From positions 5,600 to 69,599 of the forward strand of contig JAZBNZ010000234.1 of assembly GCA_036350895.1 (NCBI GenBank): DNA of 64,000 nucleotides, given 5' to 3'. How positions within the stretch are numbered: position 1 is the first letter of the stretch; the number at the start of each line of letters is the position of its first letter. Below the pieces are notes generated by a model, which was not told where the DNA came from, did no database searches, and was given only the letters and a program-made list of their open reading frames with translations. Position numbers and translations under genes: made by a program. Of this stretch, positions 1-51,616 are shown one piece after another. The stretch is from Woeseiaceae bacterium (GTDB taxonomy: Bacteria; Pseudomonadota; Gammaproteobacteria; Steroidobacterales; Woeseiaceae).

Positions 1-1167
1 GCGTTCCCGGTGCGGCCGCGCCGGGGCATTGACGAGCAGGAACAGCCGCTCCGGTCCGCCCGGCACGGCGGCATTCTCCCGGTCCTGGGCGCACACGTAC
101 ACCGTCGGCATGTCGGTGATCGTCGAGGCCTCGAACAGCGCCTTGAATTCGGCCGGGTAGTTGTCACCGAAGAAGACTGTGTGATGATCGAGCGGGAAGC
201 CGTCGGCCTCTGCCACCAGGCTCCACGTGATCGCCGACAGCGAGCGTGGTTCCTTCGACCGCGACGGGACCGCACGCGCGACCGCCTTGCCGAGCAGCCC
301 GCGGCCGAAAGCATCGACGTCCCCGTTGAAGACGACGGCGTCGACAGGAAGCTCGTCGCCGGACTCGGTCAGGACGCCGGTGACGCGACCACGGTCCGTG
401 CGCAGTTCGGCGGCACCGGTCGAGAACCGGAACTCGGCGCCGTGATTCTTGGCAATCCGCACCAGGGCCTCGGCGAGCCGCTGCATGCCCCCCTCGACGT
501 AGTAAACACCCGCGCGCTCGACGTGCGCGATCAGCATCAGGGTCGCGGGTGCCGAGAACGGGGACGAACCCGTGTAGGTCGCGTAGCGACCGAAGAGCTG
601 GCGAAGCCTGGGATCGTCGAAATAGCGGCCCAGCTCCGACCACAAGGTTCTGAACGGCTTCGTCGCATAAAGGCGCGGCAGGCCCCCGATACCGAGCGAC
701 ATGCCCAGCGAGACCGGGTTCGGCTTTTCGCGGCGCATGAACGTATCGGCGAGCGTCTCGTAAATCGCTTCCGAGTCGGCAGCGAAGCGGCGGTAGGCCG
801 CCGCCTCGCCAGCCCCGGCGAATGCCTCGATGGCCGCGGCCGAACGCTCGACGTCGGCATGGAGGTCGAGGCGGCTGCCATCCAGCCAGGCATGGCGCGC
901 GAGCAGATCCGCACGCGCGAGCGACAGCTCGTCGTCGAGGTTCGTGCCGGCCGAGCGGAACAGCTCGTCGAAGACCCAGCGCATCGTGAAGACCGTCGGG
1001 CCGGAGTCGATCGCCGCGTCGCCTGCGCACAGTTCGCGCATTTTCCCGCCCGGCACGCTGCCACGCTCGAGCACCGTCACGTCGCAGCCCTTGGCCGCAA
1101 GTTCCACCGCCGCCGCCAGGCCGCCGATGCCCGCCCCGATGACGGCGATGCGCGGACGCTGGCTCAC
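1..1167 (-). CDS. crtD: FAD-dependent carotenoid desaturase of the phytoene-desaturase family, CrtD-like (1-hydroxy/methoxyneurosporene 3,4-desaturase); the 3' end lies outside the window
   Basis: Absent from the ORF track because it runs off the edge. My minus-strand translation from the GTG at 1167-1165 gives VSQRPRIAVIGAGIGGLAAAVELAAKGCDVTVLERGSVPGGKMR...GPTVFTMRWVFDELF...YYVEGGMQRLAEAL..., with no stop down to position 1. It has a GxGxxG Rossmann N-terminus and a CrtI/CrtD-type body. The GTG overlaps the P450 stop (GTGA). CrtD versus CrtI cannot be settled without an alignment. Confidence 0.7.
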   Translation of the reverse strand, partial: MSQRPRIAVIGAGIGGLAAAVELAAKGCDVTVLERGSVPGGKMRELCAGDAAIDSGPTVFTMRWVFDELFRSAGTNLDDELSLARADLLARHAWLDGSRLDLHADVERSAAAIEAFAGAGEAAAYRRFAADSEAIYETLADTFMRREKPNPVSLGMSLGIGGLPRLYATKPFRTLWSELGRYFDDPRLRQLFGRYATYTGSSPFSAPATLMLIAHVERAGVYYVEGGMQRLAEALVRIAKNHGAEFRFSTGAAELRTDRGRVTGVLTESGDELPVDAVVFNGDVDAFGRGLLGKAVARAVPSRSKEPRSLSAITWSLVAEADGFPLDHHTVFFGDNYPAEFKALFEASTITDMPTVYVCAQDRENAAVPGGPERLFLLVNAPARPHRER

Positions 1168-2546
1168 GCTGACGATCCGCGCCGGCGGACCCGCACGAGG
1201 ATATCGTTGGCCGGCCGAGTCGTCAGCCGCGCAACCGGCCGGACGTCGGCCGCGTTGTCGATCGTGAAGTCGTAGCGCCGGGCCAGCCGGGCCAGGATCA
1301 GGCCGCTCTCGATCGTCGCGAACGCGGCGCCCACGCAAACACGAGGCCCGAGTCCGAAGGACATCAGCACCCCCTTGTCCGCACTCTCGCCGCTCGGCGT
1401 ATCGAAACGATCGGGATCGAAGCGGTCCGGGTTTTGCCAGAGCAGGGCATTCCGGTGCGCGGTCCACGGCGACACCATGATCATCGCGCCTTTCTTGACG
1501 CGGAAGCGACCGATCGTCGCACGCTCCGCCGCGACGCGCGGGATGAAGGTGATCGGTGGATACAGCCGGAGCGTCTCGCGGAAGACGTTGCGGACGAAGC
1601 CGAGCTGCTTGACCTCCTGGATCGTCACCGGCCCGTCACCGGCGATATCCTCGACCTCGGCCCGCAGGCGCTCGAGGATGTCCGGGCGCGTCGCGAGAAT
1701 GAAGAATGCCCAGGTCAGGACGCTGGCCGTCGTCTCGTGCCCGGCCAGAAAGAACACGCCGATCTCATCGATCAGCTCTTCGCGGCTGAAGCCCTCGCCG
1801 GTCTCCTTGTCGCGCGCCGCCATCACGGCCTCGACGATATCGTCGGCCGCCGGGGCGCTGCCGTCGAGCCTGGGATCGACCAGCTCCCCGATGAGTCGCC
1901 GGATGCGCGCACAGGCCTCGAGCACCGCCGCCGGCTGCTTCACGTCCGCCCACGGTTTGCCGAAGATCAGCTGCCAGAGGTCAACGCTCGCGACGCTCGA
2001 TTCGAATTCGGTGAACGAATCGCAGACGTCCCGGGCGGTCTCTGACTCCAGCGAGCGGGAGAAGATCGTCCGGCAGATGACATCGGCGGTCAGCTCGCTC
2101 ATCGCGTGATCGAGGGAAAAGCGGCGATCGTCGGCGGCGCGCCGGTCGAGCTCGGTCTCGTAGTCGTCGACGGCGGCCTGCATCGAAGCAAACGCGGTAT
2201 TGATACGCAGGCCGGTAAAGGCCGGGTCGATCATCTCGCGCTGGCGGCGCCAGCGCTCGCCGCTGGAGACAAAGATGGAATCACCGACGAGCGGCTCCAG
2301 TGCGCCGACCATCAGGTCATTCTTGGGAAATATCTCGAGCGGGTCGGTCAGGATGTCACGCGCGATCGACGGATCGTTGACCAGCAGTATCGAGCGTCGC
2401 GAATAACCGAGCCAGGTGTAGGGCTTCTCGTACGCGTCGATCGGCACGAGGCTCAGGAGGTCGCCGTCCCCCTGGCGCATGACGCGCCACAGGGATCGCA
2501 GCGGGGGTTTCGGTCGCGGCGCCGGCGGCCGGTACAGCTCCGTCAT
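1164..2546 (-). CDS. Cytochrome P450 monooxygenase (460 aa)
   Basis: I-helix AGHETTASVLTW, K-helix ETLRLYPP (ExxR) and Cys-ligand loop FGLGPRVCVGAAFA. Start re-picked at the ATG at 2546 (MTELYRPP...), preceded by AAGAGG. The track's 537-aa version adds an Arg/Ala-rich extension. The stop overlaps the crtD GTG. Confidence 0.9.
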   Translation of the reverse strand: MTELYRPPAPRPKPPLRSLWRVMRQGDGDLLSLVPIDAYEKPYTWLGYSRRSILLVNDPSIARDILTDPLEIFPKNDLMVGALEPLVGDSIFVSSGERWRRQREMIDPAFTGLRINTAFASMQAAVDDYETELDRRAADDRRFSLDHAMSELTADVICRTIFSRSLESETARDVCDSFTEFESSVASVDLWQLIFGKPWADVKQPAAVLEACARIRRLIGELVDPRLDGSAPAADDIVEAVMAARDKETGEGFSREELIDEIGVFFLAGHETTASVLTWAFFILATRPDILERLRAEVEDIAGDGPVTIQEVKQLGFVRNVFRETLRLYPPITFIPRVAAERATIGRFRVKKGAMIMVSPWTAHRNALLWQNPDRFDPDRFDTPSGESADKGVLMSFGLGPRVCVGAAFATIESGLILARLARRYDFTIDNAADVRPVARLTTRPANDILVRVRRRGSSA

Positions 2547-2663
2547 TGGCGCCTCTTGTCCCCTGTCCCGTTCACCCGCAAAGTATACGCCGTTCGGCTG
2601 CGGCCGTCGTAACGCGAACAGCATGACCCAGTCCATCCACGCCCCGACGATAGTAAAGGCAGC

Positions 2664-3797
2664 ATGCCCCGCACGGCGCTCCTGACGCTTGGCCGGCTGC
2701 CGGTCGGCCTCGACATTGCCCGGAGCTTCAGCGCCGCCGGCTGGCGCGTCATTGTCGCCGAGCCCTACGCGATGCATCTCTGCCGCATGAGCCGGTCGGT
2801 GGACCGGTCGGTCCGCGTCACCAGTCCTGCCGCGGACCCGGAAGGCTACCTGCGGGACCTTGCCCGCATCGTCGCCGCCGAGCAGGTCGACCTCGTGATC
2901 CCGGTCTCCGAGGAAACGCTGCGCATCCCGGCACTGCGCGACACGATGCCTCCCGGCACGTGTGTATTTGCGGCGGAAGCGGCGCTGCTACACGAACTCC
3001 ACGACAAGTACCGCTTCACCGAGCGCGCCCGGGCAATCGGTCTCGCCGCCGCGAGGAGCTGGCTCCCCGGCAGCGTGGACACGGCCGCAAGCAGTGGCTA
3101 CGTGATAAAGCCGCGGCGCTCCTGCTCCGGCAGGGGCGTGCGCTTCGCCGCCTCGGACGCCGACGTCCGGGCAGAGACCGGCGATGTCGTCCAGGAGCGC
3201 CTCGTCGGTGACGAGGTCTCGGGCTTCGGCGTCGCCCGCAGCGGTGAGCTCCTGGCCCCGGTGGTCTACCGGAGCCGGGTGTCGTCGGGCAGCGTTGCCG
3301 TCTGCTTCGAACGCGTCGTCGACGATGGCGCGGTGGTCGACTGGATGCGACGTTTCGTGTCGGCCACGGGCTATTCGGGATTCATTGCCTTCGACTTCAT
3401 CGTGGTCGCGGGCCAGCCGGTCGCCATCGAATGCAATCCGCGCGCGACCAGCGGCATCCACTTTCTCGCCGGCGACGCAATCGAGCCGCTGGTAAGCGGC
3501 AATACACCGCCGCAGCGTTTGTACCGCGACGACACGCTGCTGGCCGAGAAATGGTCCTGCTACACGGCCACACTCGGCCGGCTGCGCTCACCGGGCGAGT
3601 TCGCCCATGCCCTCGGACTGTTGTTCCGGTCGAAAGACGTAAGCTGGCGGCGGGCCGATCCGTGGCCGTTCCTGCTGATGCCCGTCAGCACCTTTCGCAT
3701 CATCGCCGACGCAATCCGCACCCGCAGCACGTTTGCCGAAGTCGCGGTTGCGGACGTCGCCTGGCGCGATGCGCCGGACCCGACCCCCATCCCGTGA
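2664..3797 (+). CDS. ATP-grasp superfamily ligase (377 aa), substrate unknown
   Basis: YVIKPRRSCSGRGVRF (ATP-binding Lys / Gly-rich loop) and FIAFDFIVVAGQPVAIECNPRATSG (E-x-N metal-binding motif), arranged as in ATP-grasp enzymes. Divergent from the P450. Confidence 0.8.
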   Translation: MPRTALLTLGRLPVGLDIARSFSAAGWRVIVAEPYAMHLCRMSRSVDRSVRVTSPAADPEGYLRDLARIVAAEQVDLVIPVSEETLRIPALRDTMPPGTCVFAAEAALLHELHDKYRFTERARAIGLAAARSWLPGSVDTAASSGYVIKPRRSCSGRGVRFAASDADVRAETGDVVQERLVGDEVSGFGVARSGELLAPVVYRSRVSSGSVAVCFERVVDDGAVVDWMRRFVSATGYSGFIAFDFIVVAGQPVAIECNPRATSGIHFLAGDAIEPLVSGNTPPQRLYRDDTLLAEKWSCYTATLGRLRSPGEFAHALGLLFRSKDVSWRRADPWPFLLMPVSTFRIIADAIRTRSTFAEVAVADVAWRDAPDPTPIP

Positions 3798-4822
3798 GTC
3801 ACCGTTACCCTGCAGCGCGGCTCTGTCGTGACGAACGGCCCTCCCGGGAGCTCGTGAGCTTTCTCGAAGGCGTCGAGTTCGGCGGGCAGGGCCTGCGTTA
3901 CCGGCGTAAACACCTGCTGCCGGCGCTGGAGCGCCTCGACGATCCGGTCTTCCTCTCTCTTCGTGAAGACGACGCGATCCGCGCCAGCTACGCGCTGACG
4001 GACTCCGCAGCAAGCCTCGACGGCCAACCGCTCGCCGCCGTGTACCGCGGCCTCCTGGCGGTCGACCCGGCCCGGCGCCGCCGCGGGCTCGGCCGACGGC
4101 TGGTAGAGTCCGCCCTGGCTGGAATCGAGGCGCGCAGCGCGGGGCAGCCGTTCCTGTCCTTCGGCCTCATCGAGGCAGAAAACACGGCATCCCTGCGACT
4201 GCTGGAATCGCTGGGGGCAACGGACGTAGGCAAGCTGGAAAGCCGCCTCGTCTACCGGCAATGGCCACGGCGCTCAACGCGACTCGTCGAGCTCGACTCC
4301 GGTCTCGCGGGCGCCTTCGAACGACAGCTCTCGGCACAACGTGGGGACCGCGGTCTCACCCTCCGTGCGTCCGCCCGCTATCCCGCCTACGGGCTCGTCG
4401 ACGGCGGCGACCTGCTGGCTGCGGCCCGGGTCGGCGTTACAACGCTCGATCTCGGTGCGGGCGGCCCGCTGGCCCGCTTCCTGCACCGGAACGCCTACGG
4501 GCGTTTCAGGATGCTCGGCAAGCGTTACAACCGGCGCGCATTTCGTTACCTGACCATCCACGATCCCCTCGTCGGCGATGACGCCGACGCCTGGCCGGGC
4601 TTCCTGCAGGGACTGCTCGCCCACCATGACACGCACATGGCGCTGTTTACGCTCGATGCACGCTCGGACGTCGCCGCCCGCCTCGGCACTGCCGGATTAT
4701 TCGGGCGCTTCGCGAAAACGACGCAGCAAGACCTGGTGCTGGTCGCCAGCGGCTGGAACCTGGGCGACGGGTGGACGGAACGAATCCGGAGCGCGCCCGT
4801 AACGGGCGGCCCGGTGTTCTAG
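3794..4822 (+). CDS. GNAT-family N-acetyltransferase with a second C-terminal domain (342 aa)
   Basis: GNAT motif A in LAVDPARRRRGLGRRLVESAL (R-x-x-G-x-G). About 190 further residues follow, with no motif I recognise. The GTG start at 3794 overlaps the ATP-grasp stop (GTGA). The track ORF 3431..4822 is an upstream extension of the same frame. Confidence 0.75.
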   Translation: MSHRYPAARLCRDERPSRELVSFLEGVEFGGQGLRYRRKHLLPALERLDDPVFLSLREDDAIRASYALTDSAASLDGQPLAAVYRGLLAVDPARRRRGLGRRLVESALAGIEARSAGQPFLSFGLIEAENTASLRLLESLGATDVGKLESRLVYRQWPRRSTRLVELDSGLAGAFERQLSAQRGDRGLTLRASARYPAYGLVDGGDLLAAARVGVTTLDLGAGGPLARFLHRNAYGRFRMLGKRYNRRAFRYLTIHDPLVGDDADAWPGFLQGLLAHHDTHMALFTLDARSDVAARLGTAGLFGRFAKTTQQDLVLVASGWNLGDGWTERIRSAPVTGGPVF

Positions 4823-4850
4823 ATAACGGTGTTCCGGACGACAAGGTGCC

Positions 4851-4890
4851 GCGCCGGCCGCCACGTCGGGGAGATGCAGGCGGCCGGCGC
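4851..4890. terminator. Perfect 12-bp GC stem-loop between the convergent GNAT and pufC genes (possible bidirectional terminator or 3'-end stabiliser; no U-tract)
   Basis: GCGCCGGCCGCC (4851-4862), a 16-nt loop, then GGCGGCCGGCGC (4879-4890). It sits in the 88-nt gap between the two stop codons. Confidence 0.5.
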
Positions 4891-4910
4891 AGAGCAGAAA
4901 CGGGATTGCC

Positions 4911-5918
4911 TTATCGGCCTCCCAAAGACGGGTACGCCGATACCGCGTCCGCTCCGCCAAGCGGCTTATTCAATCCCTGGTGGCAGGTAGCGCAGTACGC
5001 TTTCGGCGCATCACCCACGTGCGGTCCAAGGCGGTTGTCCGGGTACGTCGGCCCCAGGGGAACCAGGTAGTTCCCGTTGAGGTCGCGGACCATGTTGAGC
5101 CCGTAGTGCGCCGTTATGCGTTGCGGCGTGCTCGACTCCCAGTTCTGGAACGCGCGCGAGTTGTGACAGAACGTGCAGTTCACACCCAGTGAGGAAGACC
5201 AGTTCATCATCAAGGCATACGTGTACTCGGCGTCCTTGATCGTCAACGGTTCGACCGCTGCGCGCCGCCAGTCGTCGCCGGCAATCCGCACGCTGTCGCT
5301 CTGCGGCGAGACCTGGAACCGCGAGAACGGATCCGAGGGCAAGGTCGCGTAAGCCACTGCTTCGACGGGGCGGTTCTGGCCGGCACGCCAGCCCGCAAAC
5401 GGCGAGTTGCCGTAGGTCGAGTCGCCTTCGTCGAACCAGATGTACTCCGGTACGTTCTTGCCGCGGTGACACGTGTAGCAGTTGACGCCGTTCTGGCCGA
5501 CATGATCCGTCCAGTTCCCGTTTACGTGCTGGGTCATCTGGATCATCCGCCGGGAGACCACCTTGGTGTACTTGCCGTCGTCCGCGAGATTGTCAGGATA
5601 GTGGCAGTAGTTGCAGCCCTCTTCCGGCGAAACCCACTGGGTAATCGACGTCATCAGGCGGGTAAACTGCCCGACCGAGAGGTCTCCGAGAACCTGGACG
5701 TTCTCATAGACCTCACCGGCCTTCGGTCCCGATGCCGGCGCAGCCGGCAGGGCCGCCGGGTAACCTGCCTCTAGAGCCTCTGCTCGCGGGTTGGTCACGT
5801 CGCCCATCGCCACGCCGCGGAAGCCGTACTGTTCCGTATCGACGGGTGGCCGTTCGCACGCGGCGAGAACCAGTGCGATCGATGTCAGGACAATCGCTTT
5901 TCTTGTTGCGCTCATCAT
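4911..5918 (-). CDS. pufC: Reaction-centre tetrahaem cytochrome c subunit
   Basis: Four CxxCH motifs (CNYCH, CYTCH, CTFCH, CATCH). Immediately downstream of pufM. The N-terminus ...LVLAAC resembles a lipoprotein signal. Confidence 0.95.
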   Translation of the reverse strand: MMSATRKAIVLTSIALVLAACERPPVDTEQYGFRGVAMGDVTNPRAEALEAGYPAALPAAPASGPKAGEVYENVQVLGDLSVGQFTRLMTSITQWVSPEEGCNYCHYPDNLADDGKYTKVVSRRMIQMTQHVNGNWTDHVGQNGVNCYTCHRGKNVPEYIWFDEGDSTYGNSPFAGWRAGQNRPVEAVAYATLPSDPFSRFQVSPQSDSVRIAGDDWRRAAVEPLTIKDAEYTYALMMNWSSSLGVNCTFCHNSRAFQNWESSTPQRITAHYGLNMVRDLNGNYLVPLGPTYPDNRLGPHVGDAPKAYCATCHQGLNKPLGGADAVSAYPSLGGR

Positions 5919-8288: not shown

Positions 8289-8330
8289 TGTTTTTACTCC
8301 TCAACACAAAAGTCGACTTGGTTGCGGTTA

Positions 8331-13685: not shown

Positions 13686-13729
13686 TGTCAGTTTACCCTG
13701 ACTCGTAAGATTGTCAACATTTATTTACA
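13686..13729. promoter_or_regulatory. Pair of PpsR/CrtJ-type operators 8 bp apart, overlapping a putative bchC promoter
   Basis: TGTCAGTTTACCCTGACT (13686-13703; TGT-N12-ACT) and TGTCAACATTTATTTACA (13712-13729; perfect TGT-N12-ACA). On the minus strand the second operator contains TTGACA (-35) and the first contains TAAACT (-10), with a 16-nt spacer. Confidence 0.6.
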
Positions 13730-15786: not shown

Positions 15787-15830
15787 TGTCAACTTAACTT
15801 GTCACCTGTACATGTAAGGTAATGTAGACA
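15787..15830. promoter_or_regulatory. Pair of PpsR/CrtJ-type operators 8 bp apart in the crtE / crtC divergent region
   Basis: TGTCAACTTAACTTGTCA (15787-15804; TGT-N12-TCA) and TGTAAGGTAATGTAGACA (15813-15830; perfect TGT-N12-ACA). The region is AT-rich within a GC-rich genome. Confidence 0.55.
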
Positions 15831-23668: not shown

Positions 23669-24838
23669 TTAGTGGTTGTCTCGTAGAGCTACGGTGCTGT
23701 CCGCGTCGTTCCCGCCATCGGCATTGGCGCCGGAAACCCGGGCGTCCATAGATGGCGCGAAGAGGAACCGCGTAAATGCTTGTGAATTTTCCTGGCCGAA
23801 CGCGCGCAGATCGATCCTGCGGTCTGAGACCGGGTCGAACAGGTAGATCTGGCCGGCATCGGTCTGGCCGACGGTGAACGGCTCCTCGCTGCCGGCATTC
23901 AGCGCGTCGCGGGCCCTGACGAGCCCCCGCAGCGTTGCCCGAACGAAACCGTTCGTGCCGGGTTCCAGCGTATCGACGACGCTGCCGTCGGCTGCGTTTC
24001 GAACGACAACCGAACCGTCCGCCTGGTCCTCGAAATAGAGGTCGACCTGGCTGACGAAAGGCACCGGAGCCGCAGCGTCGGAAGTATCGGTCAGCTGGTT
24101 CCAGGCGACAGCGATCAGCGAGAAGCCGACGAGCGCCACGCCCGCGGCGAGCGGAACGGTCGGGTACGGACGCCAGCGAGGCCTGTCCGCGCCCGTGTCA
24201 CGCTCGGCAGCATCGCCTTCCTGCACGACGCGAACGGCGGGACCGGTTGCCTCGGCGGCCCGGCAAAGAGCGCCGGCCAGCGTCTCGGCCACGCTGCGAG
24301 CATCAGCGATGCCGCGCAGAACCGGTCGCACGCGCAGGAACCGCCACGGTTTGACCATGGGCCAGACCAGCAGCCAGGAGACGCGATTGCCGCGAGCCGG
24401 CAACAGGCTGATGTCACCGCTGTCGTCGCCGTGTAACCTCAGCTCGGCCGACTCGATCAACCTGTAGGGCAGGTTGATCGTGACCGGCAGGGCAACACCG
24501 GTTCGGATCACGACGCGTCGGTCAGTGATCGTGAACAGGCTCGACCGCGCCACCAGGCGCGCATAGCCGGCCACGATCCCGAGGGCCACCAGGGCCAGCA
24601 GGGTATAGCCGGCCGTCGTGCCGATCGCATCACCCACCGGTGTGTTACCGGCTACCGAGAGACCGAACTGCAGGACCAGGAGCGCCCCGAAATACACGGC
24701 CAGCGTCCTGAGCCGGAAGCTGCCGACGGCGAGGCTGCGGAAATCCGGCGCCCCCTGCCATAGCATCGTCTCGTTGTCAGGAAGCGGCTCGGGGATACCG
24801 GGCTCGTGTTCCTGATCGTGTTCGAGCATGTTATTCAA
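23669..24838 (-). CDS. puhB: PuhB-PuhC fusion protein (RC-LH1 assembly factors in one ORF, 389 aa)
   Basis: Residues 1 to about 205 are PuhB-like: two TM helices plus a bPH-type LFTITDRRVVIRTG region. Residues about 225-389 are PuhC-like: a TM helix VPLAAGVALVGFSLIAVAW, then GFVRATLRGLVRARD...LFDPVSDRRIDLRAFGQENSQAF. There is no stop between the two parts. The track start is a TTG overlapping the puhA stop (TTGA); an alternative ATG is at 24829. Confidence 0.75.
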   Translation of the reverse strand: MNNMLEHDQEHEPGIPEPLPDNETMLWQGAPDFRSLAVGSFRLRTLAVYFGALLVLQFGLSVAGNTPVGDAIGTTAGYTLLALVALGIVAGYARLVARSSLFTITDRRVVIRTGVALPVTINLPYRLIESAELRLHGDDSGDISLLPARGNRVSWLLVWPMVKPWRFLRVRPVLRGIADARSVAETLAGALCRAAEATGPAVRVVQEGDAAERDTGADRPRWRPYPTVPLAAGVALVGFSLIAVAWNQLTDTSDAAAPVPFVSQVDLYFEDQADGSVVVRNAADGSVVDTLEPGTNGFVRATLRGLVRARDALNAGSEEPFTVGQTDAGQIYLFDPVSDRRIDLRAFGQENSQAFTRFLFAPSMDARVSGANADGGNDADSTVALRDNH

Positions 24839-33888: not shown

Positions 33889-35697
<1,809 letters not shown>

Positions 35698-42335: not shown

Positions 42336-42389
42336 GCAGTAAATAATTAGCAGCCGGCGCATACCGGCTCGAGAAAAAAGGGGCTAGTG

Positions 42390-43886
42390 ATGACGGGAAT
42401 AATCGACATTAAGTCATCGGATCAGTCGACGATCGGGTTGAGCGGCCTGGCGGTCTACATACCGCCGTTCAGGGTCAGGCTCGAGGACTGGTGCGAATGG
42501 ACGGGCAGCCCCTGGCAGAAGATCAGCAAGGTCGTCGGCCGAAGTTTCCGCCTGCGGGGACCGGACCAGAGCATGTACACGATGGCGGCGACCGCCGTCA
42601 TGCGCCTGATCGACCAGTACGAACTCGATCCCGCCGAGATCGGCTTCCTGGGCCTCGGCACAGAATCGAGCAGCGACAACTCGGCGGGGGCGATTATCGT
42701 CAAGGGCATGCTGGACCGGGCGCTCACTGAGCGGGGTTCTGCGCCGCTGGCGAGAAACTGCGAGGTGCCCGAGTTCAAGCACGCCTGTCTCGGCGGCGTC
42801 TACGCCATGAAAGGCGCGCTGCGCTATCTCGCCCTCGACGGTCGCGGCAAGAAGGCGATCGTGGTCTGCGCCGACATTGCCGAATACGCACGCGGCAGCA
42901 CCGGTGAACCCACCCAGGGTGCGGGCGCGGTGGCCATGCTGCTCGAGTCCAACCCGACGCTGGCCGCGGTCGATCTCGCCAACTCCGGTTCGGCTTCCGA
43001 CTATCGCATCATGGACTTCCGCAAACCGATGATCCGCTTCTGCGGCCAGGATCGCAGCGAGAGCCATCACATCCAGGATTTCCCCGTCTTCAACGGCAAG
43101 TACTCGACGACCTGCTACATCGACGAGACCCTGCAGGCACTCGAGGACATGTACTCGAAACGCGGCCTCGAGCCGATCGACTATTTGCGGAGCCTGAAGA
43201 ACGTCTTCATGCACCGCCCCTACCGGCGCATGCCGGAAAACGGCTGGGCCGTTGCCTGGCTGTTCGCTCTCGGGCGCGGCTCCCAGCGGGACCGCGAACT
43301 CCTCGGCAGCTACGCCGGTAAATCCGGCATCGAACTCGACGCACTGCTCGCCGAGATGGCCGCCGCGGTCGACGTGCAGGATTTCGCGACGCCGGAAGGC
43401 CTGAACATCGAACCGTATCCGCTGACGATGGCCACCCTGCACGCGTTCCGCCAATCGGAAGACTTCGAGGACAGCGTTCTCTCAAGGCTCGCGCTGGGCG
43501 CCACGGATATCCGGGATCTCGGCAACCTCTATACGGCCGCACTGCCGGCGTGGCTGGCCGCGGGCTTCGAGGAGGCACTCCGCGACGACCTGCCGATAAC
43601 CGGGGACGAGTTGCTGACGATGGGCTACGGCAGCGGCGACGCGGCCGAGGTCATCCCCTTCTACGTTGCCGAAGGCTGGCAGGAAGCCGCCAGCCGGATT
43701 CGCTTCACCGACGCCCTGACCAGGGCCGTCGACCTGACGCGTGAACAGTACGAGGCACTGCACGATGGCCGGCGGGTCACGGACCTCGGCTACGATCCGG
43801 CGGACGAATTCGTCGTCGAACGTGTCGGCCAGAGCGACGACCGGCACTTCCAGGACATCGGCATCGAGTACTACCGCTACGCCTGA
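42390..43886 (+). CDS. Hydroxymethylglutaryl-CoA synthase family protein (498 aa)
   Basis: Blocks align by eye to bacterial MvaS: LGLGTESSSDNSAGA (catalytic Glu), EFKHACLGGV (catalytic Cys), VVCADIAEYARGSTGEPTQGAGAVAMLL, VFMHRPYRRM (His), GNLYTAALPAWL and MGYGSGDAAEV. About 100 aa longer than MvaS. AAGGGG upstream; a GTG at 42387 is an alternative start. Confidence 0.85.
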   Translation: MTGIIDIKSSDQSTIGLSGLAVYIPPFRVRLEDWCEWTGSPWQKISKVVGRSFRLRGPDQSMYTMAATAVMRLIDQYELDPAEIGFLGLGTESSSDNSAGAIIVKGMLDRALTERGSAPLARNCEVPEFKHACLGGVYAMKGALRYLALDGRGKKAIVVCADIAEYARGSTGEPTQGAGAVAMLLESNPTLAAVDLANSGSASDYRIMDFRKPMIRFCGQDRSESHHIQDFPVFNGKYSTTCYIDETLQALEDMYSKRGLEPIDYLRSLKNVFMHRPYRRMPENGWAVAWLFALGRGSQRDRELLGSYAGKSGIELDALLAEMAAAVDVQDFATPEGLNIEPYPLTMATLHAFRQSEDFEDSVLSRLALGATDIRDLGNLYTAALPAWLAAGFEEALRDDLPITGDELLTMGYGSGDAAEVIPFYVAEGWQEAASRIRFTDALTRAVDLTREQYEALHDGRRVTDLGYDPADEFVVERVGQSDDRHFQDIGIEYYRYA

Positions 43887-44818: not shown

Positions 44819-46360
44819 ATGCTGTTAGCCGAATTGGGCGACGCGTCGCGCGCCGTTGCAGCGACGCGGAGCCGTCTCCGGAAACGTGCCCTGCTCGCCC
44901 GCCTGTTCAGCGACGCCGATCCGGCGAGCGTCGGGCTCGCCGTGAATTACCTGACCGGTACGCTGCCGCAGGGGCGTATCGGTCTCGGCCCGGCGATCGT
45001 CCGCCGCGCGCTGGACGGTATCGACGGCAGCACCGCCGAGCAGGCACTCGATCTCGCCGCGGTCGACCGCGCGTTCAGCACGATCGCGGCGACACGGGGC
45101 AAGGGCGCGGTGGAACAGCGGGAGGCCGTTCTCCGGTCGCTGTTCGAACGCAGCTCGGCCGGCGATCGCGAATTCCTCGCAAGGCTGGTACTCGGCGAAC
45201 TCCGGCAAGGCGCGCTCGAGGCCGTCATCCTCGAAAGCATCGCCGAGGCGAGCGGTCTCGATGACGCCGACATCCGCCGGGCCGCGATGCTGACCGCGGA
45301 CCCGGCTATCGTTGCGACGACGGCGTTCGAGGACGGACTCGAAGGCCTGCGCCGATTCCGGCTGACGCCGCTCGCACCGGTGCGGCCGATGCTGGCACAG
45401 CCCGCCGGCACGCTGGTCGATGCGATAGGGGCGATGCCCGATGACGCCCAGCTCGAGTACAAGCTCGACGGTGCACGCGTCCAGCTACACCGCGACGGCG
45501 ACGCGGTCCGGGTATTCACGCGCCAGCTCAACGACGTCACCGATAACGTGCCCGAGCTCGTGGCCACGGCGCTGGCACTACCGGCCGAACAGCTGATCCT
45601 CGATGGCGAAGCGATCGTGCTGCGCGACGACGGCAGCCCGCAACCCTTCCAGGTCACAATGCGCCGCTTTGGCCGCAAGGCCAGCGACGAACGCGTCCAG
45701 GCCGAGCTGCCGCTGTCCGTGTTCCTGTTCGATTGCCTGTTCGTCGACGGGGAATCGCTGCTCGATCGCCCGCTTCACGAACGCATGAGCGTGCTCGATC
45801 GAATTGCACCCGACATCCGGGTGCCATGTCTCAGGACCGGCGAACCCGCGGCCGCGCATCGCTTCCTGCGCCAGGCGCTGGACGCCGGGCACGAAGGCAT
45901 CATGGTCAAGACGCCGGCGGGCCGCTACGCGGCCGGCAGCCGCGGCGCGGACTGGCTCAAGGTCAAGGAAGCGCACACGCTCGATCTCGTCGTCCTGGCG
46001 GCAGAATGGGGCAGCGGGCGGCGCCGCGGCTGGCTGTCGAACCTGCACCTGGGCGCCCGCGACGGGGACGGTTTCGTCATGCTCGGCAAGACCTTCAAGG
46101 GTCTGACCGACAAGCTGCTCGCATGGCAGACCGGTGCCCTGCTCGAGCGGGAACTCGAGCGCGACGATCACACCGTGCACGTGCAGCCGGAACTGGTCGT
46201 GGAGATCGCCGTCAACGAGATTCAGGCCAGCCCGCACTACCCGGCCGGCATGGCGCTGCGCTTCGCGCGTGTCAAGCGTTACCGCGACGACAAAGCACCC
46301 GCCGAGGCTGATACGATCGAGACCGTACGAGCCCTGTTCAGGCAGCAGAACCCCGAATGA
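44819..46360 (+). CDS. ATP-dependent DNA ligase
   Basis: Adenylation motif I EYKLDGARVQLH (KxDG), motif V-like MVKTPAGRYAAGSRGADWLKVK, and an OB-domain tail. Confidence 0.9.
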   Translation: MLLAELGDASRAVAATRSRLRKRALLARLFSDADPASVGLAVNYLTGTLPQGRIGLGPAIVRRALDGIDGSTAEQALDLAAVDRAFSTIAATRGKGAVEQREAVLRSLFERSSAGDREFLARLVLGELRQGALEAVILESIAEASGLDDADIRRAAMLTADPAIVATTAFEDGLEGLRRFRLTPLAPVRPMLAQPAGTLVDAIGAMPDDAQLEYKLDGARVQLHRDGDAVRVFTRQLNDVTDNVPELVATALALPAEQLILDGEAIVLRDDGSPQPFQVTMRRFGRKASDERVQAELPLSVFLFDCLFVDGESLLDRPLHERMSVLDRIAPDIRVPCLRTGEPAAAHRFLRQALDAGHEGIMVKTPAGRYAAGSRGADWLKVKEAHTLDLVVLAAEWGSGRRRGWLSNLHLGARDGDGFVMLGKTFKGLTDKLLAWQTGALLERELERDDHTVHVQPELVVEIAVNEIQASPHYPAGMALRFARVKRYRDDKAPAEADTIETVRALFRQQNPE

Positions 46361-49300
46361 CGGCATCACGATTCCAGGCGGCCACCAAGCGCTGGTTCGC
46401 CGACAATTTCGCGGCACCCACCGACGTGCAGGTGCGCGGCTGGGAGCACATACTCGGCGGCCATCATGCCTTGCTGGTCGCGCCCACCGGCAGCGGCAAG
46501 ACGCTGGCGGCGTTTCTCGCCGGCATCGACCGCCTGGGCCGCCTGGCGGAGGACGCGGAGCCGGGTGTTCGGCTGCTCTACGTATCGCCGCTCAAGGCGC
46601 TCGTGTACGACATAGAGCGCAACCTGCGTGCCCCGCTGGTCGGCATCACGCGCAGCGCGGAACAGCTCGATCAGGCGTTTCGCCAGCCGAGTGTCGCGAT
46701 CCGCACGGGGGACACGCCGCAGCGGGAGCGTCAGCGCCAGCTCAAGGAACCGGGCGACATTCTCGTCACGACGCCGGAGTCCCTCTTCCTGATGCTCGGT
46801 TCGAAAGTCGCGGAGACGCTGGCGACCGTCGAGACGGTCATCATCGACGAGATACACGCGCTCGCACCGAGCAAGCGCGGCGCGCACCTCGCGCTGTCGC
46901 TGGAGCGCCTCGATGCCCTCGCCGCGCAGCCGGTACAAAGAATCGGCCTGTCCGCGACGGTACGGCCGCTGGACAGCGTCGCACGCTACCTTGGCGGGGA
47001 TCGTGCCGTGGAGATCGTCGACTGCTCGAGGGCGCCCGCGATCGACCTCGAGGTCAGGGTGCCGGTCCCCGACATGGAGGCGCCGCCGAGTCCGTCGCCG
47101 GCACCGCCGGGCGGCTCGATACTGGGCCAGCTGTATTCTCGCGAGGTCGGCACTCCGCAGGGCGAACGCGGCATCTGGCCGTCGATATACCCGCAGCTGC
47201 TCGAGGCCGTGCGGACTCACCGGTCGAGCATCATCTTCGTTAACAGCCGCGGCCTGTGCGAACGCCTCGCCCACAAGCTCAACGAACTGGCCGACGAGGA
47301 GCTGGTCAAGGCGCATCACGGCAGCATTTCTCACGCCCGGCGCGCCGAGATCGAGGAAGGGCTGAAATCGGGCGCGATTCGCGGCATCGTCGCAACGAGC
47401 TCCCTCGAACTCGGGATCGACATGGGCGCCGTCGACCTCGTCATGCTCGTCGAGTCACCGGGGTCGGTCGCGCGCGGGCTGCAGCGCGTCGGCCGCGCCG
47501 GGCACGGCGTCGGCGAGATCAGCAGCGGCCACCTGTATCCGAAGTTCCGCGGCGACCTGCTCGAGAGTGCCGTCGTGGCATCGCGCATGCTGGATGCGGA
47601 AATCGAAGCGATCACGGTGCCGGTCAACCCGCTGGATGTCCTTGCGCAGCAGATCGTCGCGATGTGCTGCCAGGCGCCGCTCACGGTCGACGAGATCGAG
47701 CGTGTCGTCCGGCGCGCCTGGTCCTACCGTGAACTGTCACGCGGTCTCCTCGAGGCCGTGCTCGACATGCTTTCCGGGCACTACCCCTCGACCGATTTCG
47801 CCGATCTCAAGCCGCTACTGTCCTGGAACCGGGCCAACGACACGCTGTCGCCCAGGCGGGGCGCGGCGATGGTAACCCGCATGAACGCGGGCACGATCCC
47901 CGACCGTGGCGCCTACGGCGTCCACCTCGGTGAAGACGGTCCGCGCGTCGGCGAGCTGGACGAGGAAATGGTCTTCGAGACCCGCGCCGGCGACAACATA
48001 ACGCTCGGCGCGAGCACCTGGCGGGTGGAAGCGATCACGCGGGATCGCGTCGTGGTGACGCCGGCGCCGGGTGAACCGGGACGCCTGCCGTTCTGGCGGG
48101 GTGACGGGCCCGGCAGGCCGATCGAGCTCGGCCGCGCCCTGGGCGAGTTTGTCCGCACCCTCGGCGGAATGAGCCAGGCAAAGGCGGAAGCCTGGCTCGC
48201 CGACAACACGCCGCTCGATGCCCTGGCCGCTCGCAACCTCGCCGCTTACGTGAGTGAACAGCAGCGCGAGACCGGGACGCTGCCGACCGACCGGCAGATC
48301 ACCGTCGAGCGCTTCCGGGACGAGCTCGGAGACTGGCGCATCTGCATCCTGACGCCGTTCGGCGCACGCGTGCACGCGCCATGGTCGATGGCGCTGCAGC
48401 GCCTGCTCGCACAGGAGAGCGGCTACGAAATGCAGGTCATGTACACGGACGACGGCATCGTGCTCAGGTTCGCCGACGCCGACGAACTGCCGTCGCTCGA
48501 CCATCTCGTCCCCGACCCGGACAGCGTGGAGGACATGATCATGGAACAGCTGGCCGGCACGTCGCTGTTCGCCGGCCTGTTCCGCGAGAACGCCGTACGC
48601 TCGCTGATCCTGCGGCGCCGCCGGCCCGGCCAGCGCGCGCCGCTCTGGGCACAGCGACTCAAGGCGCAGAACCTGCTGGCGACCGTGCAGAAATACCCGT
48701 CGTTCCCGATCGTCATGGAAACCTACCGGCACGCCATGGCGGACGTATTCGACCTGCCTGCGTTCAAGACACTCCTGAAAGACCTGCGCAGCCGGGCCAT
48801 CCGCATCGACGACGTCGAGACGCGCAGCGCCTCGCCGTTCGCCCGGTCGCTGGTGTTCGCGTATGTCGCCGCGTATCTCTATGAACAGGACGCACCGCTG
48901 GCCGAGCGCAAGGCCCAGGCGCTGACGCTCGACCGGGGGCTGCTCGCCGAACTCCTTGGCCAGGGAGAACTGCGCGACCTGATCGACCCGGCGGTGCTCG
49001 CCGAACTCGAGGAAGACCTCGGCTTCCTGAGCGAGGACTACCGGGCACGGGACGCCGACGACCTGCACGACCAGCTGCGCCGGCTGGGCGACCTGCACGG
49101 CGACGAAGTCGACGCGCGCAGCGACGGCGATTCGGCGGCCTGGCTCCGTTCACTCCTCGACGAGCGGCGGGTCGTCGAGATACCGATCGCCGACGAGCGC
49201 CGCTACATCACCGCCGACGATGCAGGGCTGTATCGCGACGCGCTCGGCATCGCGCCGCCCGCCGGACTCCCCGATTCCTTCCTCGAACCCGTCGACGATG

Positions 49301-50844: not shown

Positions 50845-51616
50845 CACGATCCACAAGATAGCGGCCTTCATGGCGCCGCGCCTGACCGGGCAAACGGTCG
50901 ACAAGATACGCTTAGGCGCGAACGCTCCAGGCCGCTTCGCGGGCGCGACCATCCGCTCGATCGAGGCGCGTGGCAAGCACCTGTGGCTGGATCTCGACAA
51001 CGATTCGTCGATACGTACGCACCTCGGCATGTACGGCTCGTGGCACGTCTACAAGCACAGCGAACGCTGGCGCAAGCCGGCCCGCCAGGCGTCGCTCGTA
51101 CTCGAGTCCGGCGACGAGCGCTACGTGTGCTTCAATGCGCGCGACGTCGAGATCGTCGATCGACCCGGCGTGCGCGAACGCGTGCTCGACGCACGGCTCG
51201 GCCCCGACCTGATCGCCACCGTGGTCGACCCTGCCCGGCTGCTTGCGCGGGCCCGCGAATTCGACACCGGCGACACCCTGCTGATCGACACGCTGCTGGA
51301 CCAGCGCGTCGCCGCCGGCATCGGCAACGTCTACAAATCGGAGGTCCTGTTCCTGCATCGGCTGCCACCGGATCGCGCGCTGGCGGCCACGCCCGACGAG
51401 ACCATCGCCGGATGCTTCCTGACCGCCGCTGACCTCCTGCGCCGCAACCTGGGTGGCGGCAAACGGACCACGCGCTTCGCCGGCGACATGGCGGGACGAC
51501 TGTGGGTCTACGGCCGGACCGGCCAGCTCTGCCACGAGTGCGACACGCCGATCCGGCAGCGCCGGATGGGCCGGCACCATCGAGGGACCTACTGGTGTCC
51601 GCGCTGCCAGGCCTGA
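50831..51616 (+). CDS. nei: Fpg/Nei-family DNA glycosylase / AP lyase (endonuclease VIII-like, 261 aa)
   Basis: N-terminal MPEGDT (catalytic Pro2/Glu3), H2TH region [12 protein letters not shown], and C-terminal zinc finger CHECDTPI...YWCPRCQ. The start overlaps the 3' end of lhr by 14 nt. Confidence 0.85.

What the first reader, a model, noticed from the sequence alone, without database searches (positions are those of the whole stretch)
1164..2546. Cytochrome P450 translationally coupled to crtD inside the photosynthesis gene cluster
Seen in the sequence:
- A complete P450 (ExxR, I-helix AGHETT, FGLGPRVCVG haem loop) whose stop codon overlaps the GTG start of the crtD-like desaturase (GTGA at 1164-1167). 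The two are therefore almost certainly co-transcribed and co-translated.
- The pair sits between the puf operon and the left edge of the PGC.

Established knowledge:
- The canonical purple-bacterial spheroidene/spirilloxanthin pathway uses CrtB, I, C, D and F, with CrtA as its only oxygenase, and no P450.
- P450s that act on carotenoids or retinoids are known in other lineages (CYP175A1 in Thermus, CYP120A1 in Synechocystis).

Inference: this P450 is a candidate carotenoid-tailoring oxygenase (hydroxylation, ketolation or terminal oxidation) in this phototroph, possibly filling the role of the crtA that is missing from the window.
Basis: partly seen in the sequence, partly recalled or inferred. 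Interest (0 to 1): 0.7.

Follow-up and report, generated by a model that had tools for sequence, protein, structure and literature searches.

The report
Carotenoid-linked P450 coupled to crtD
A complete cytochrome P450 gene overlaps the start of the carotenoid desaturase gene crtD in this photosynthesis gene cluster, and its orthologues sit beside carotenoid genes in four bacterial lineages, so it is very probably an uncharacterised carotenoid-oxidising enzyme.

Summary
Window 1164-2546 (- strand) encodes a complete 460-aa cytochrome P450, and its TGA stop overlaps the GTG start of a genuine crtD (GTGA, 1164-1167).

- In 49 loci carrying an orthologue (53-100% identity), carotenoid desaturase genes are almost always adjacent. 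The taxa are Woeseiaceae and other Gammaproteobacteria, Alphaproteobacteria, Burkholderiales and Gemmatimonadota.
- The 4- or 8-nt stop/start overlap with crtD is kept in 23 of 24 loci where crtD directly follows the P450.
- The nearest non-orthologous P450s (37-38% identity) have no carotenoid context.
- No crtA is found in the window or in any locus.

- The P450 is part of a larger conserved module. It includes an unannotated 7-helix membrane protein ("MP", 44/49 loci, just left of the window in relatives), an ATP-grasp ligase (39/49) and, in the Woeseiaceae-type gammaproteobacterial loci, a GNAT protein.
- The module also occurs outside photosynthesis clusters.
- The cluster continues left of the window.

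The reaction catalysed is not established. I slightly favour allylic C-2 oxygenation (CrtA-like) over methyl-to-carboxyl oxidation. The papers I could search do not describe this family.

The parts
1164..2546 (-). Cytochrome P450, 460 aa, complete CDS including stop
   Evidence: Pfam p450 245 bits. AGHETT, ETLR and FGLGPRVCVG motifs present. AlphaFold2 model pLDDT 84, pTM 0.88. Foldseek TM 0.72-0.81 to solved P450s, CYP97C1/A3 first.
1..1167 (-). crtD (1-hydroxycarotenoid 3,4-desaturase), first 389 codons; the gene runs off the left end of the window
   Evidence: NCBIfam NF045637 518 bits over model positions 1-378/485. Full-length orthologues pass the 580-bit cutoff.
1164..1167 (-). GTGA overlap: crtD start GTG (1167-1165) and P450 stop TGA (1166-1164)
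   Evidence: Read directly from the sequence. The same ATGA/GTGA overlap occurs in 17 other loci, and an 8-nt ATGnnTGA overlap in 5 more.
2547..2663 (.). 117-bp divergent intergenic region between the P450-crtD pair and the ATP-grasp-GNAT pair; holds a -10-like TATACT (read on the - strand, 2587-2582) about 35 nt upstream of the P450 start
   Evidence: A TATACT/TATAAT element recurs upstream of the P450 start in most Woeseiaceae-type loci. There is no exact TGT-N12-ACA (PpsR-type) site here, although such sites occur at 8289, 13712 and 15813.
2664..3797 (+). ATP-grasp ligase of unknown specificity, 377 aa, divergent from the P450
   Evidence: Pfam ATP-grasp_3; NCBIfam PRK06849-like 222 bits, below cutoff. 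Adjacent to the P450 in 39/49 loci, including loci outside photosynthesis clusters. A profile search against the PDB finds only generic carbamoyl-phosphate-synthase-like and L-amino-acid-ligase folds.
3794..4822 (+). GNAT-domain protein, 342 aa; its GTG start overlaps the ATP-grasp stop (GTGA at 3794-3797)
   Evidence: Pfam FR47 and Acetyltransf hits. Weak PDB matches to YncA and MshD. Overlap read. Present in 22/49 loci, all of the Woeseiaceae-type gene order.

Best explanation
The gene encodes a soluble, O2-dependent cytochrome P450 that is the oxygenase of a conserved carotenoid-tailoring module. In this window it starts a two-gene P450-crtD pair. The pair probably has its own sigma-70-like promoter, and crtD translation is coupled to P450 termination through the GTGA overlap, so the two enzymes are made together.

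I infer that the P450 oxygenates the acyclic end group that CrtC and CrtD build in the spirilloxanthin branch. My preferred reaction is hydroxylation, possibly followed by oxidation to a ketone, at C-2. CrtD's 3,4-double bond makes C-2 allylic, and C-2 is where the unrelated haem enzyme CrtA acts in Rhodobacter and Rubrivivax. CrtA is absent here.

The oxygenated carotenoid would then be modified further by the divergently encoded ATP-grasp ligase and GNAT acyltransferase. The conserved 7-helix membrane protein MP would act as the P450's membrane partner, for substrate hand-over or electron supply. In close relatives MP is encoded about 3.5 kb left of the window.

Shown: the gene, the overlap, the synteny and the absence of crtA. 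Inferred: the carotenoid substrate, the regiochemistry, and the roles of MP, ATP-grasp and GNAT.
For: - Synteny: 49 loci with orthologues show CrtD (39), a CrtI-family desaturase (36), MP (44) and ATP-grasp (39) within about 3.4 kb of the P450.
- The link to carotenoid genes survives outside photosynthesis clusters. L015 is a free-standing six-gene island among housekeeping genes. L042 lies among xanthine-dehydrogenase-like and Pel genes. Gemmatimonadota loci sit next to crtB, cruF and crtI.
- The stop/start overlap with crtD is conserved in 23 of 24 loci where crtD directly follows the P450. In the other arrangement the P450 is divergent from an MP-crtD pair, 105-253 nt away.
- In L043/L044 the MP stop overlaps the P450 start by 4 nt.
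- The orthologue group is compact. It has one full-length representative at 50% clustering, and the next relatives are at 39-46%. Two paralogues at 37-38% have no crt context.
- Best solved-structure matches are the carotene hydroxylases: CYP97A3 at 184 bits against 137 for the next with the single sequence, and 243 against 201 with an orthologue profile. CYP97C1 and CYP97A3 are also top by Foldseek.
- No crtA in the window or in any locus, including upstream of bchI in L029 and L031.
- AcsF, the O2-dependent cyclase, is in the same cluster, which fits an aerobic phototroph.
- Published reviews state that the enzymes for several oxygenated acyclic carotenoids are unknown (PMC10604819, PMC8342508).
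Against: - No biochemical or genetic data exist for any member, and every orthologue I could name comes from a metagenome-assembled genome (MAG). No product chemistry can therefore be tied to the gene.
- C-2 oxygenation does not explain why an ATP-grasp ligase, which needs a carboxylate substrate, is so tightly linked.
- In Gemmatimonadota the neighbouring desaturase is CrtI-type, not CrtD-type, so the link is to carotenoid genes in general rather than to 3,4-desaturation.
- The CYP97 resemblance is weak evidence. Identity is 31.9%, Foldseek E-values for P450 BM3 are almost the same, and at least 150 uncharacterised clusters are nearer in sequence.
- No ferredoxin or reductase gene is in the module.
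- There is no PpsR-type site in the promoter region.
Confidence: 0.4

Rival explanations
1. Same module and same carotenoid substrate, but the P450 oxidises a methyl group stepwise to alcohol, aldehyde and carboxylic acid. The methyl could be terminal (C-16/17) or in-chain (C-19/20). The ATP-grasp ligase then activates that carotenoic acid as an acyl phosphate and joins it to an amine or alcohol. The GNAT acylates the conjugate in the lineages that have it. Where ATP-grasp is absent (Gemmatimonadota), the free acid or aldehyde would remain.
For: - ATP-grasp enzymes use a carboxylate substrate (established chemistry of the superfamily), and one is adjacent to the P450 in 39/49 loci, including outside photosynthesis clusters.
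- ATP-grasp and GNAT are themselves coupled by a GTGA overlap.
- Aldehyde- and carboxyl-bearing acyclic carotenoids exist in phototrophs, and their oxidases are unknown: rhodopinal; gemmatoxanthin with 19'-al and 16-oic acid (PMC10604819, PMC8342508).
- Gemmatimonadota loci carry MP-P450 without ATP-grasp, and the P450 occurs in MAGs assigned to the genus Gemmatimonas.
Against: - It does not explain the conserved translational coupling to CrtD in particular.
- No complete Gemmatimonas genome appeared among the best 120 relatives of the Gemmatimonadaceae orthologue, so there is no link to a strain known to make gemmatoxanthin.
- The ATP-grasp has no informative relative, so its substrates are unknown.
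- As far as I know, no natural carotenoid amide or amino-acid ester has been reported.
Confidence: 0.3
2. The P450 is not a biosynthetic tailoring enzyme. It turns carotenoids over or cleaves them into apocarotenoid or retinoid-like products, as a repair or signalling function under oxygen and light.
For: The module occurs in non-phototrophic contexts as well.
Against: Being encoded head-to-tail with the biosynthetic desaturase, with an overlapping stop/start kept in 23 of 24 such loci, is the signature of a pathway step rather than of catabolism. No cleavage dioxygenase or retinal-binding protein gene was seen in the flanks examined.
Confidence: 0.08
3. The P450 acts on a non-carotenoid membrane molecule (bacteriochlorophyll, quinone, hopanoid or fatty acid) and merely travels with the cluster.
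For: - P450s of this clan include fatty-acid and sterol hydroxylases (CYP102, CYP3A, CYP46).
- No NCBIfam equivalog assigns a function.
- No redox partner is encoded nearby.
Against: The linkage is to crtD, crtI, crtB and cruF, and it persists where no bch or puf gene lies within the roughly 10-kb flanks (L015, L038, L042, L043, L045). In loci inside clusters the gene always sits within the crt sub-cluster or next to crtD/crtI, never within a bch operon.
Confidence: 0.08

Closest known systems
CYP97A3 (LUT5) and CYP97C1, plant chloroplast carotene beta- and epsilon-ring hydroxylases
   Same: P450 fold. Best-scoring solved structures by sequence (184 bits with the single sequence, 243 bits with the orthologue profile, clear of the next hit) and first by Foldseek. 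They act on C40 carotenoids, which is the substrate class inferred here.
   Different: Only 31.9% identity over 386 aligned positions, below the 40% convention for a CYP family. At least 150 clusters of uncharacterised P450s are nearer, and none of them resembles CYP97 (<=34% identity to CYP97A3). CYP97 enzymes hydroxylate rings, whereas this cluster's genes (crtC, crtD, crtF-like, with no cyclase found) point to acyclic carotenoids.
CrtA, spheroidene monooxygenase of Rhodobacter and Rubrivivax
   Same: An O2-dependent haem oxygenase encoded in a photosynthesis gene cluster that oxidises the end group made by CrtC, CrtD and CrtF (PMC10604819, PMC13488962). This is the role the P450 may fill here.
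   Different: Unrelated protein: His-ligated haem, not a P450 (PMC13488962), and no sequence similarity. CrtA sits upstream of bchI, while this P450 sits upstream of, or divergent from, crtD.
Bacterial carotenoid P450s: CYP175A1 (Thermus beta-carotene 3-hydroxylase) and CYP287A1 (Deinococcus 2-beta-hydroxylase)
   Same: Bacterial P450s that hydroxylate carotenoids. The Deinococcus pathway also uses CruF and CrtD (my own knowledge, not tested here).
   Different: No entry labelled as a Thermus P450 or CYP175 was among the 60 best solved-structure matches listed. CYP287A1 could not be compared because no sequence was available. Both are ring hydroxylases. Neither is known to have a 7-helix membrane partner or an ATP-grasp neighbour.
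CYP184A1 of Streptomyces avermitilis (7wzl) and P450 BM3 / CYP102
   Same: Second-best solved match to the orthologue profile (201 bits) and comparable Foldseek scores. Same broad clan, with the FxxGxRxCxG haem loop.
   Different: About 21-26% identity in the structural alignment. No carotenoid connection. BM3 is fused to its reductase, whereas this P450 stands alone.

Membership tests
Cytochrome P450 superfamily (PF00067) | Profile match above the curated cutoff | tested here: met
   245.2 bits against a cutoff of 22.8, residues 42-439.
Cytochrome P450 superfamily (PF00067) | Cys-ligand loop FxxGxRxCxG, K-helix ExxR and I-helix (A/G)Gx(E/D)T(T/S) | tested here: met
   FGLGPRVCVG 397-406, ETLR 324-327, AGHETT 268-273. 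The core residues of all three motifs (including Cys404, E324, R327 and A268-T272) are invariant in 42 orthologues.
Cytochrome P450 superfamily (PF00067) | P450 fold | tested here: met
   AlphaFold2 pLDDT 84, pTM 0.88. TM-scores 0.72-0.81 to solved P450s.
Cytochrome P450 superfamily (PF00067) | Haem binding and a 450-nm CO-difference spectrum | not testable with these tools
   Requires purified protein.
CYP97 family (carotene hydroxylases) | At least 40% amino-acid identity to a family member (CYP nomenclature convention) | tested here: not met
   31.9% identity to CYP97A3 over 386 aligned positions.
CYP97 family (carotene hydroxylases) | CYP97 proteins are the nearest relatives in sequence space | tested here: not met
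   The 150 best 50%-identity representatives all score at least 219 bits, against 184.5 for CYP97A3. None exceeds 34% identity to CYP97A3.
CrtA (spheroidene monooxygenase) | Sequence homology to CrtA | tested here: not met
   tblastn with R. litoralis CrtA found nothing in the window at E<=10 and nothing better than E 0.69 in any locus. The P450 is a different fold.
CrtD, 1-hydroxycarotenoid 3,4-desaturase (the downstream gene) | NCBIfam NF045637 equivalog score of at least 580 bits | tested here: inconclusive
   The truncated window copy scores 518 bits on 378 of 485 model positions. Full-length orthologues beside the P450 score 643 bits (L015) and 607 bits (L042).
Photosynthesis gene cluster component | Located inside a cluster of bch, puf, puh and crt genes | tested here: met
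   The window holds pufCML, bchZYXC, a crtF-like methyltransferase, crtE, crtC, crtB, bchODI, puhE, acsF, puhBC, puhA, bchM, bchL, bchN, ppsR, bchG and bchP. 29 of 49 loci show cluster markers.
Photosynthesis gene cluster component | Restricted to photosynthesis clusters, or under PpsR control | tested here: not met
   The module also occurs with no bch, puf or puh gene within about 10 kb on either side (L015, L038, L042, L043, L045). There is no exact TGT-N12-ACA site in 2547-2663.

The most novel reading that the evidence does not exclude
The P450 and the unannotated 7-helix, four-histidine membrane protein MP form a new two-component, membrane-docked carotenoid oxygenase. MP would hand the membrane-embedded carotenoid, or electrons, to an otherwise soluble bacterial P450. 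Together with the ATP-grasp ligase and GNAT, the module would make a class of acylated or amidated oxygenated acyclic carotenoids not yet described. These would occur in aerobic anoxygenic phototrophs and in some non-phototrophs. The module could also be the missing route to oxygenated acyclic carotenoids such as rhodopinal-, gemmatoxanthin- or oscillol-type pigments.
Probability: 0.25. Interest if true: 0.85.

Novelty: new variant of a known kind. Interest (0 to 1): 0.66.

Why it matters
Carotenoid biosynthesis in purple and aerobic anoxygenic phototrophs is treated as solved, with CrtA as the only oxygenase. Yet recent reviews state that the enzymes for several oxygenated acyclic carotenoids are unknown. 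These include rhodopinal and the aldehyde and carboxyl groups of gemmatoxanthin (PMC10604819, PMC8342508); from my own knowledge the 2-hydroxyl of oscillol belongs in this group too.

This P450 family is abundant in metagenomes. It is compact in sequence and tied to crtD or crtI across four lineages. It comes with a conserved partner set (a 7-helix membrane protein, an ATP-grasp ligase and a GNAT) that no known carotenoid pathway uses.

That gives a concrete, clonable candidate for those missing steps. It may also be a new way of coupling a soluble bacterial P450 to a membrane substrate. Finally, it shows that MAGs assigned to Woeseiaceae carry full photosynthesis clusters.

Tried and rejected
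1. CYP97 as sister family: rejected. It is the best solved structure, but at least 150 uncharacterised clusters are nearer and none is CYP97-like.
2. MP as a distant CruF-type hydratase: hhalign probability 0.1%.
3. MP fold assignment: Foldseek against the PDB found nothing (best E 0.39, TM <= 0.31). Pfam and NCBIfam found nothing.
4. ATP-grasp specificity: single-sequence and profile searches of the PDB gave only generic carbamoyl-phosphate-synthase-like and L-amino-acid-ligase folds.
5. PpsR control: no exact TGT-N12-ACA site in the P450/ATP-grasp intergenic region.
6. Orthologue on a plasmid or in an annotated cultured genome: PLSDB hits are all <= 38% identity and lack crt context.
7. A cultured host: every named orthologue is from a MAG. 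The look-up of the contig that probably holds this window failed, and cluster-member names gave only 'Gemmatimonas sp.' MAG entries.
8. Rosetta-stone fusion: the N-terminal domain of the 863-aa relative P0366 matches none of the module proteins.
9. Literature: no paper in the library combines P450 with crtD and pufM, or with a photosynthesis gene cluster and crtD.
10. Recent horizontal insertion: GC content of 1-5000 (66-69%) is close to the window mean of 65%.
Full report
**1. What is in the window**

The - strand ORF 1164-2546 encodes a 460-aa protein that matches Pfam p450 at 245 bits. It carries the I-helix AGHETT (268-273), the K-helix ETLR (324-327) and the haem loop FGLGPRVCVG (397-406). 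The longer ORF listed from 2777 is not the real start. All orthologues begin at the equivalent of ATG 2546 with a conserved MxxLYRPPAPxP, and AAGAGG lies 8 nt upstream.

The TGA stop (1166-1164) overlaps GTG 1167-1165. That GTG is the only start codon ahead of the FAD-binding GxGxxG motif, which begins 26 nt after the stop.

The downstream protein runs off the window after 389 codons. It scores 518 bits on NCBIfam's proteobacterial CrtD model over 378 of 485 positions. Full-length orthologues in the same position pass the 580-bit cutoff.

**2. Surroundings**

The window is a 65% GC photosynthesis gene cluster spanning about 1-41.9 kb. On the - strand unless marked, it holds:
- crtD, the P450, then ATP-grasp (+) and GNAT (+);
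- pufC, pufM, pufL, bchZ, bchY, bchX, bchC;
- a crtF-like methyltransferase, crtE, crtC (+), crtB;
- bchO, bchD, bchI, puhE, acsF, a fused puhB-puhC, puhA, lhaA;
- bchM, bchL, and two large ORFs at the usual bchH and bchB positions that were not scanned, then bchN;
- a B12-binding regulator (+), ppsR (+), bchG (+), a PucC-family gene (+) and bchP (+).

There is no crtI and no crtA in the window. tblastn with R. litoralis CrtA gives no hit in the window and nothing better than E 0.69 in any locus. crtI is simply off the left end. In the closest relatives the order is pufBALMC > <GNAT <ATP-grasp >P450 >crtD <crtI >MP, followed by unrelated genes. These relatives are Woeseiaceae MAGs L001-L004 and metagenome loci L048/L049, with 78-83% P450 identity. 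The cluster's real left edge thus lies about 3.5-4 kb beyond the window.

ATP-grasp and GNAT overlap by GTGA at 3794-3797, exactly like P450 and crtD. The two coupled pairs diverge from a 117-bp spacer. This spacer carries a -10-like TATACT that recurs in relatives and has no PpsR-type palindrome.

**3. The linkage test**

One scan of species-representative genomes gave 41 loci, and contig look-ups added eight. Counting the window but not the comparison loci L047, L050 and L051, there are 49 loci, three pairs of which are near-duplicates. A tblastn tally within the available flanks gives:

| Feature near the P450 | Loci (of 49) |
|---|---|
| CrtD orthologue | 39 |
| CrtI-family desaturase | 36 |
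| Conserved ~250-aa membrane protein (MP) | 44 |
| ATP-grasp | 39 |
| GNAT | 22 |
| bch, puf or puh markers | 29 |

The taxa are Woeseiaceae, Steroidobacteraceae, Acidibacter and other Gammaproteobacteria; Hyphomicrobium, Tepidamorphaceae, Geminicoccaceae, Anderseniella and a Rhizobiaceae-group MAG; Burkholderiales; and Gemmatimonadaceae.

Two arrangements dominate:
- P450>crtD with a 4-nt (18 loci including the window) or 8-nt (5 loci) stop/start overlap. That is 23 of 24 loci where crtD directly follows the P450.
- An MP-crtD pair divergent from the P450, only 105-253 nt away.

The link does not depend on phototrophy.
- L015 is a six-gene island (GNAT, ATP-grasp, P450, crtD, crtI, MP) among LysR, EamA, MFS, aldolase, glyoxalase, GSDH and TonB-receptor genes.
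- L042 sits between xanthine-dehydrogenase-like and Pel genes.
- In Gemmatimonadota, an MP-P450 pair whose coding sequences overlap by 4 nt is inserted between clpX and clpP-tig. It lies 2.5 kb from crtI, cruF and crtB.
- In L045, MP, a 137-aa ORF and the P450 are convergent with crtI-type and cruF genes.

By contrast, the two closest non-orthologous P450s I could inspect (37-38% identity, on Microbulbifer and Polaromonas plasmids) have no carotenoid neighbours.

**4. What family it is**

No NCBIfam equivalog fits. The best is albaflavenone monooxygenase at 166 bits against a 700-bit cutoff.

Against solved structures the plant carotene hydroxylase CYP97A3 is clearly first:
- 184.5 bits against 137 for CYP3A with the single sequence;
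- 243 bits against 201 for CYP184A1 and 187 for CYP3A4 with a 31-sequence orthologue profile;
- CYP97C1 and CYP97A3 also head the Foldseek list, though P450 BM3 is practically tied.

Identity to CYP97A3 is 31.9%, so it is not a CYP97 member. An exhaustive search of 1.84 billion cluster representatives shows the orthologue group collapsing to one full-length representative (55% identity). A continuum of 39-46% relatives follows. All 150 best hits score above CYP97A3, and none resembles CYP97.

The CYP97 resemblance is therefore a modest hint of substrate class, not a family assignment. This is a distinct, compact P450 family that no paper in the searchable library describes.

**5. The partners**

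- MP has no Pfam or NCBIfam family and is always annotated as hypothetical. It is predicted with confidence as seven long, mostly hydrophobic helices (pLDDT 89, pTM 0.86). It has no structural neighbour in the PDB and is unrelated to CruF. It keeps four invariant histidines across 42 divergent homologues.
- The ATP-grasp and GNAT proteins have only generic relatives.
- No ferredoxin or reductase is encoded in the module.

**6. Mechanism**

Shown:
- a P450 is encoded head-to-tail with crtD, with a conserved overlapping stop/start;
- the P450 family is linked to carotenoid genes inside and outside photosynthesis clusters;
- crtA is absent.

Inferred: the substrate is a carotenoid of the acyclic CrtC/CrtD branch. 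About 85% of my confidence rests on readings in which the substrate is a carotenoid.

For the reaction I slightly prefer allylic C-2 hydroxylation or ketolation, the CrtA reaction (0.4). CrtD creates the allylic position, and crtD is the gene the P450 is welded to. The main rival is methyl-to-carboxyl oxidation feeding the ATP-grasp ligase (0.3). It explains the ligase better, and it fits the unexplained aldehyde and acid groups of rhodopinal and gemmatoxanthin (PMC10604819, PMC8342508). Carotenoid turnover and a non-carotenoid substrate are minor rivals.

I could not tie the family to any cultured strain with known pigments. All named members are from MAGs, including 'Gemmatimonas sp.' entries. 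That is the main gap.

**7. Verdict**

The feature turns out to be part of a wider conserved module that appears to be undescribed. It is a new variant of a known kind (carotenoid P450 oxygenases), with partners that no known carotenoid pathway uses.

Noticed in passing
Not in the window; L001:14453-15202 (+), L048:10001-10732 (+), L043:9264-10004 (+): A conserved ~250-aa protein with seven predicted helices, four invariant histidines, no Pfam or NCBIfam family and no structural neighbour in the PDB. It is linked to the P450 in 44/49 loci. In relatives of the window it marks the end of the photosynthesis cluster, just beyond crtI.
   Followed up: yes
window 2664-3797 (+) and 3794-4822 (+): ATP-grasp and GNAT-domain genes overlap by GTGA and diverge from the P450. 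ATP-grasp travels with the P450 in 39/49 loci, even outside photosynthesis clusters. Its substrates are unknown.
   Followed up: partly
L033:9154-11314, L043:9264-11410, L044:745-2891: In Gemmatimonadota the MP-P450 pair is inserted inside the otherwise conserved tig-clpP-clpX-lon array, 2.5 kb from crtI, cruF and crtB.
   Followed up: partly
L001-L004, L010, L018 (Woeseiaceae MAGs) and the window itself: MAGs assigned to Woeseiaceae carry photosynthesis-cluster genes. From my own knowledge the family is regarded as sediment chemoheterotrophs. A library search found no paper whose title or abstract opening describes phototrophic Woeseiaceae.
   Followed up: partly
window 23669-24838 (-): A single 389-aa ORF holds both a PuhB domain (residues 8-179) and a PuhC domain (226-359), which looks like a puhB-puhC fusion.
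   Followed up: no
window 33889-35691 (-): The BchN ORF has about 190 extra N-terminal residues with no match to the BchN models. This may be a mis-called start or read-through from bchF.
   Followed up: no
window 42387-43886 (+): An HMG-CoA-synthase-like gene lies about 0.5 kb downstream of bchP, just past the right edge of the photosynthesis cluster.
   Followed up: no
window 44819-51616 (+): ATP-dependent DNA ligase, a 1495-aa Lhr-type helicase and a Nei2 endonuclease lie in a row, forming a DNA-repair cassette next to the cluster.
   Followed up: no
window 59966-63979 (-): A 1337-aa ORF fuses carboxyltransferase, biotin carboxylase and biotinyl-carrier domains. A PhaC synthase gene lies next to it at 58121-59911 (+).
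   Followed up: no
P450 residues 4-12 (window 2537-2511, - strand); relative P0366 residues ~390-400: An N-terminal proline-rich motif, LYRPPAPxP, is conserved throughout the orthologue group (P7, P8 and P10 invariant). It is even kept at the domain junction of an 863-aa fused relative. It could be a docking motif.
   Followed up: no
window 8289-8306, 13712-13729, 15813-15830: Exact TGT-N12-ACA palindromes (PpsR/CrtJ-type) lie upstream of the puf operon, between bchC and the crtF-like gene, and between crtE and crtC. None lies upstream of the P450. The window-wide count of 7 is not above chance.
   Followed up: partly
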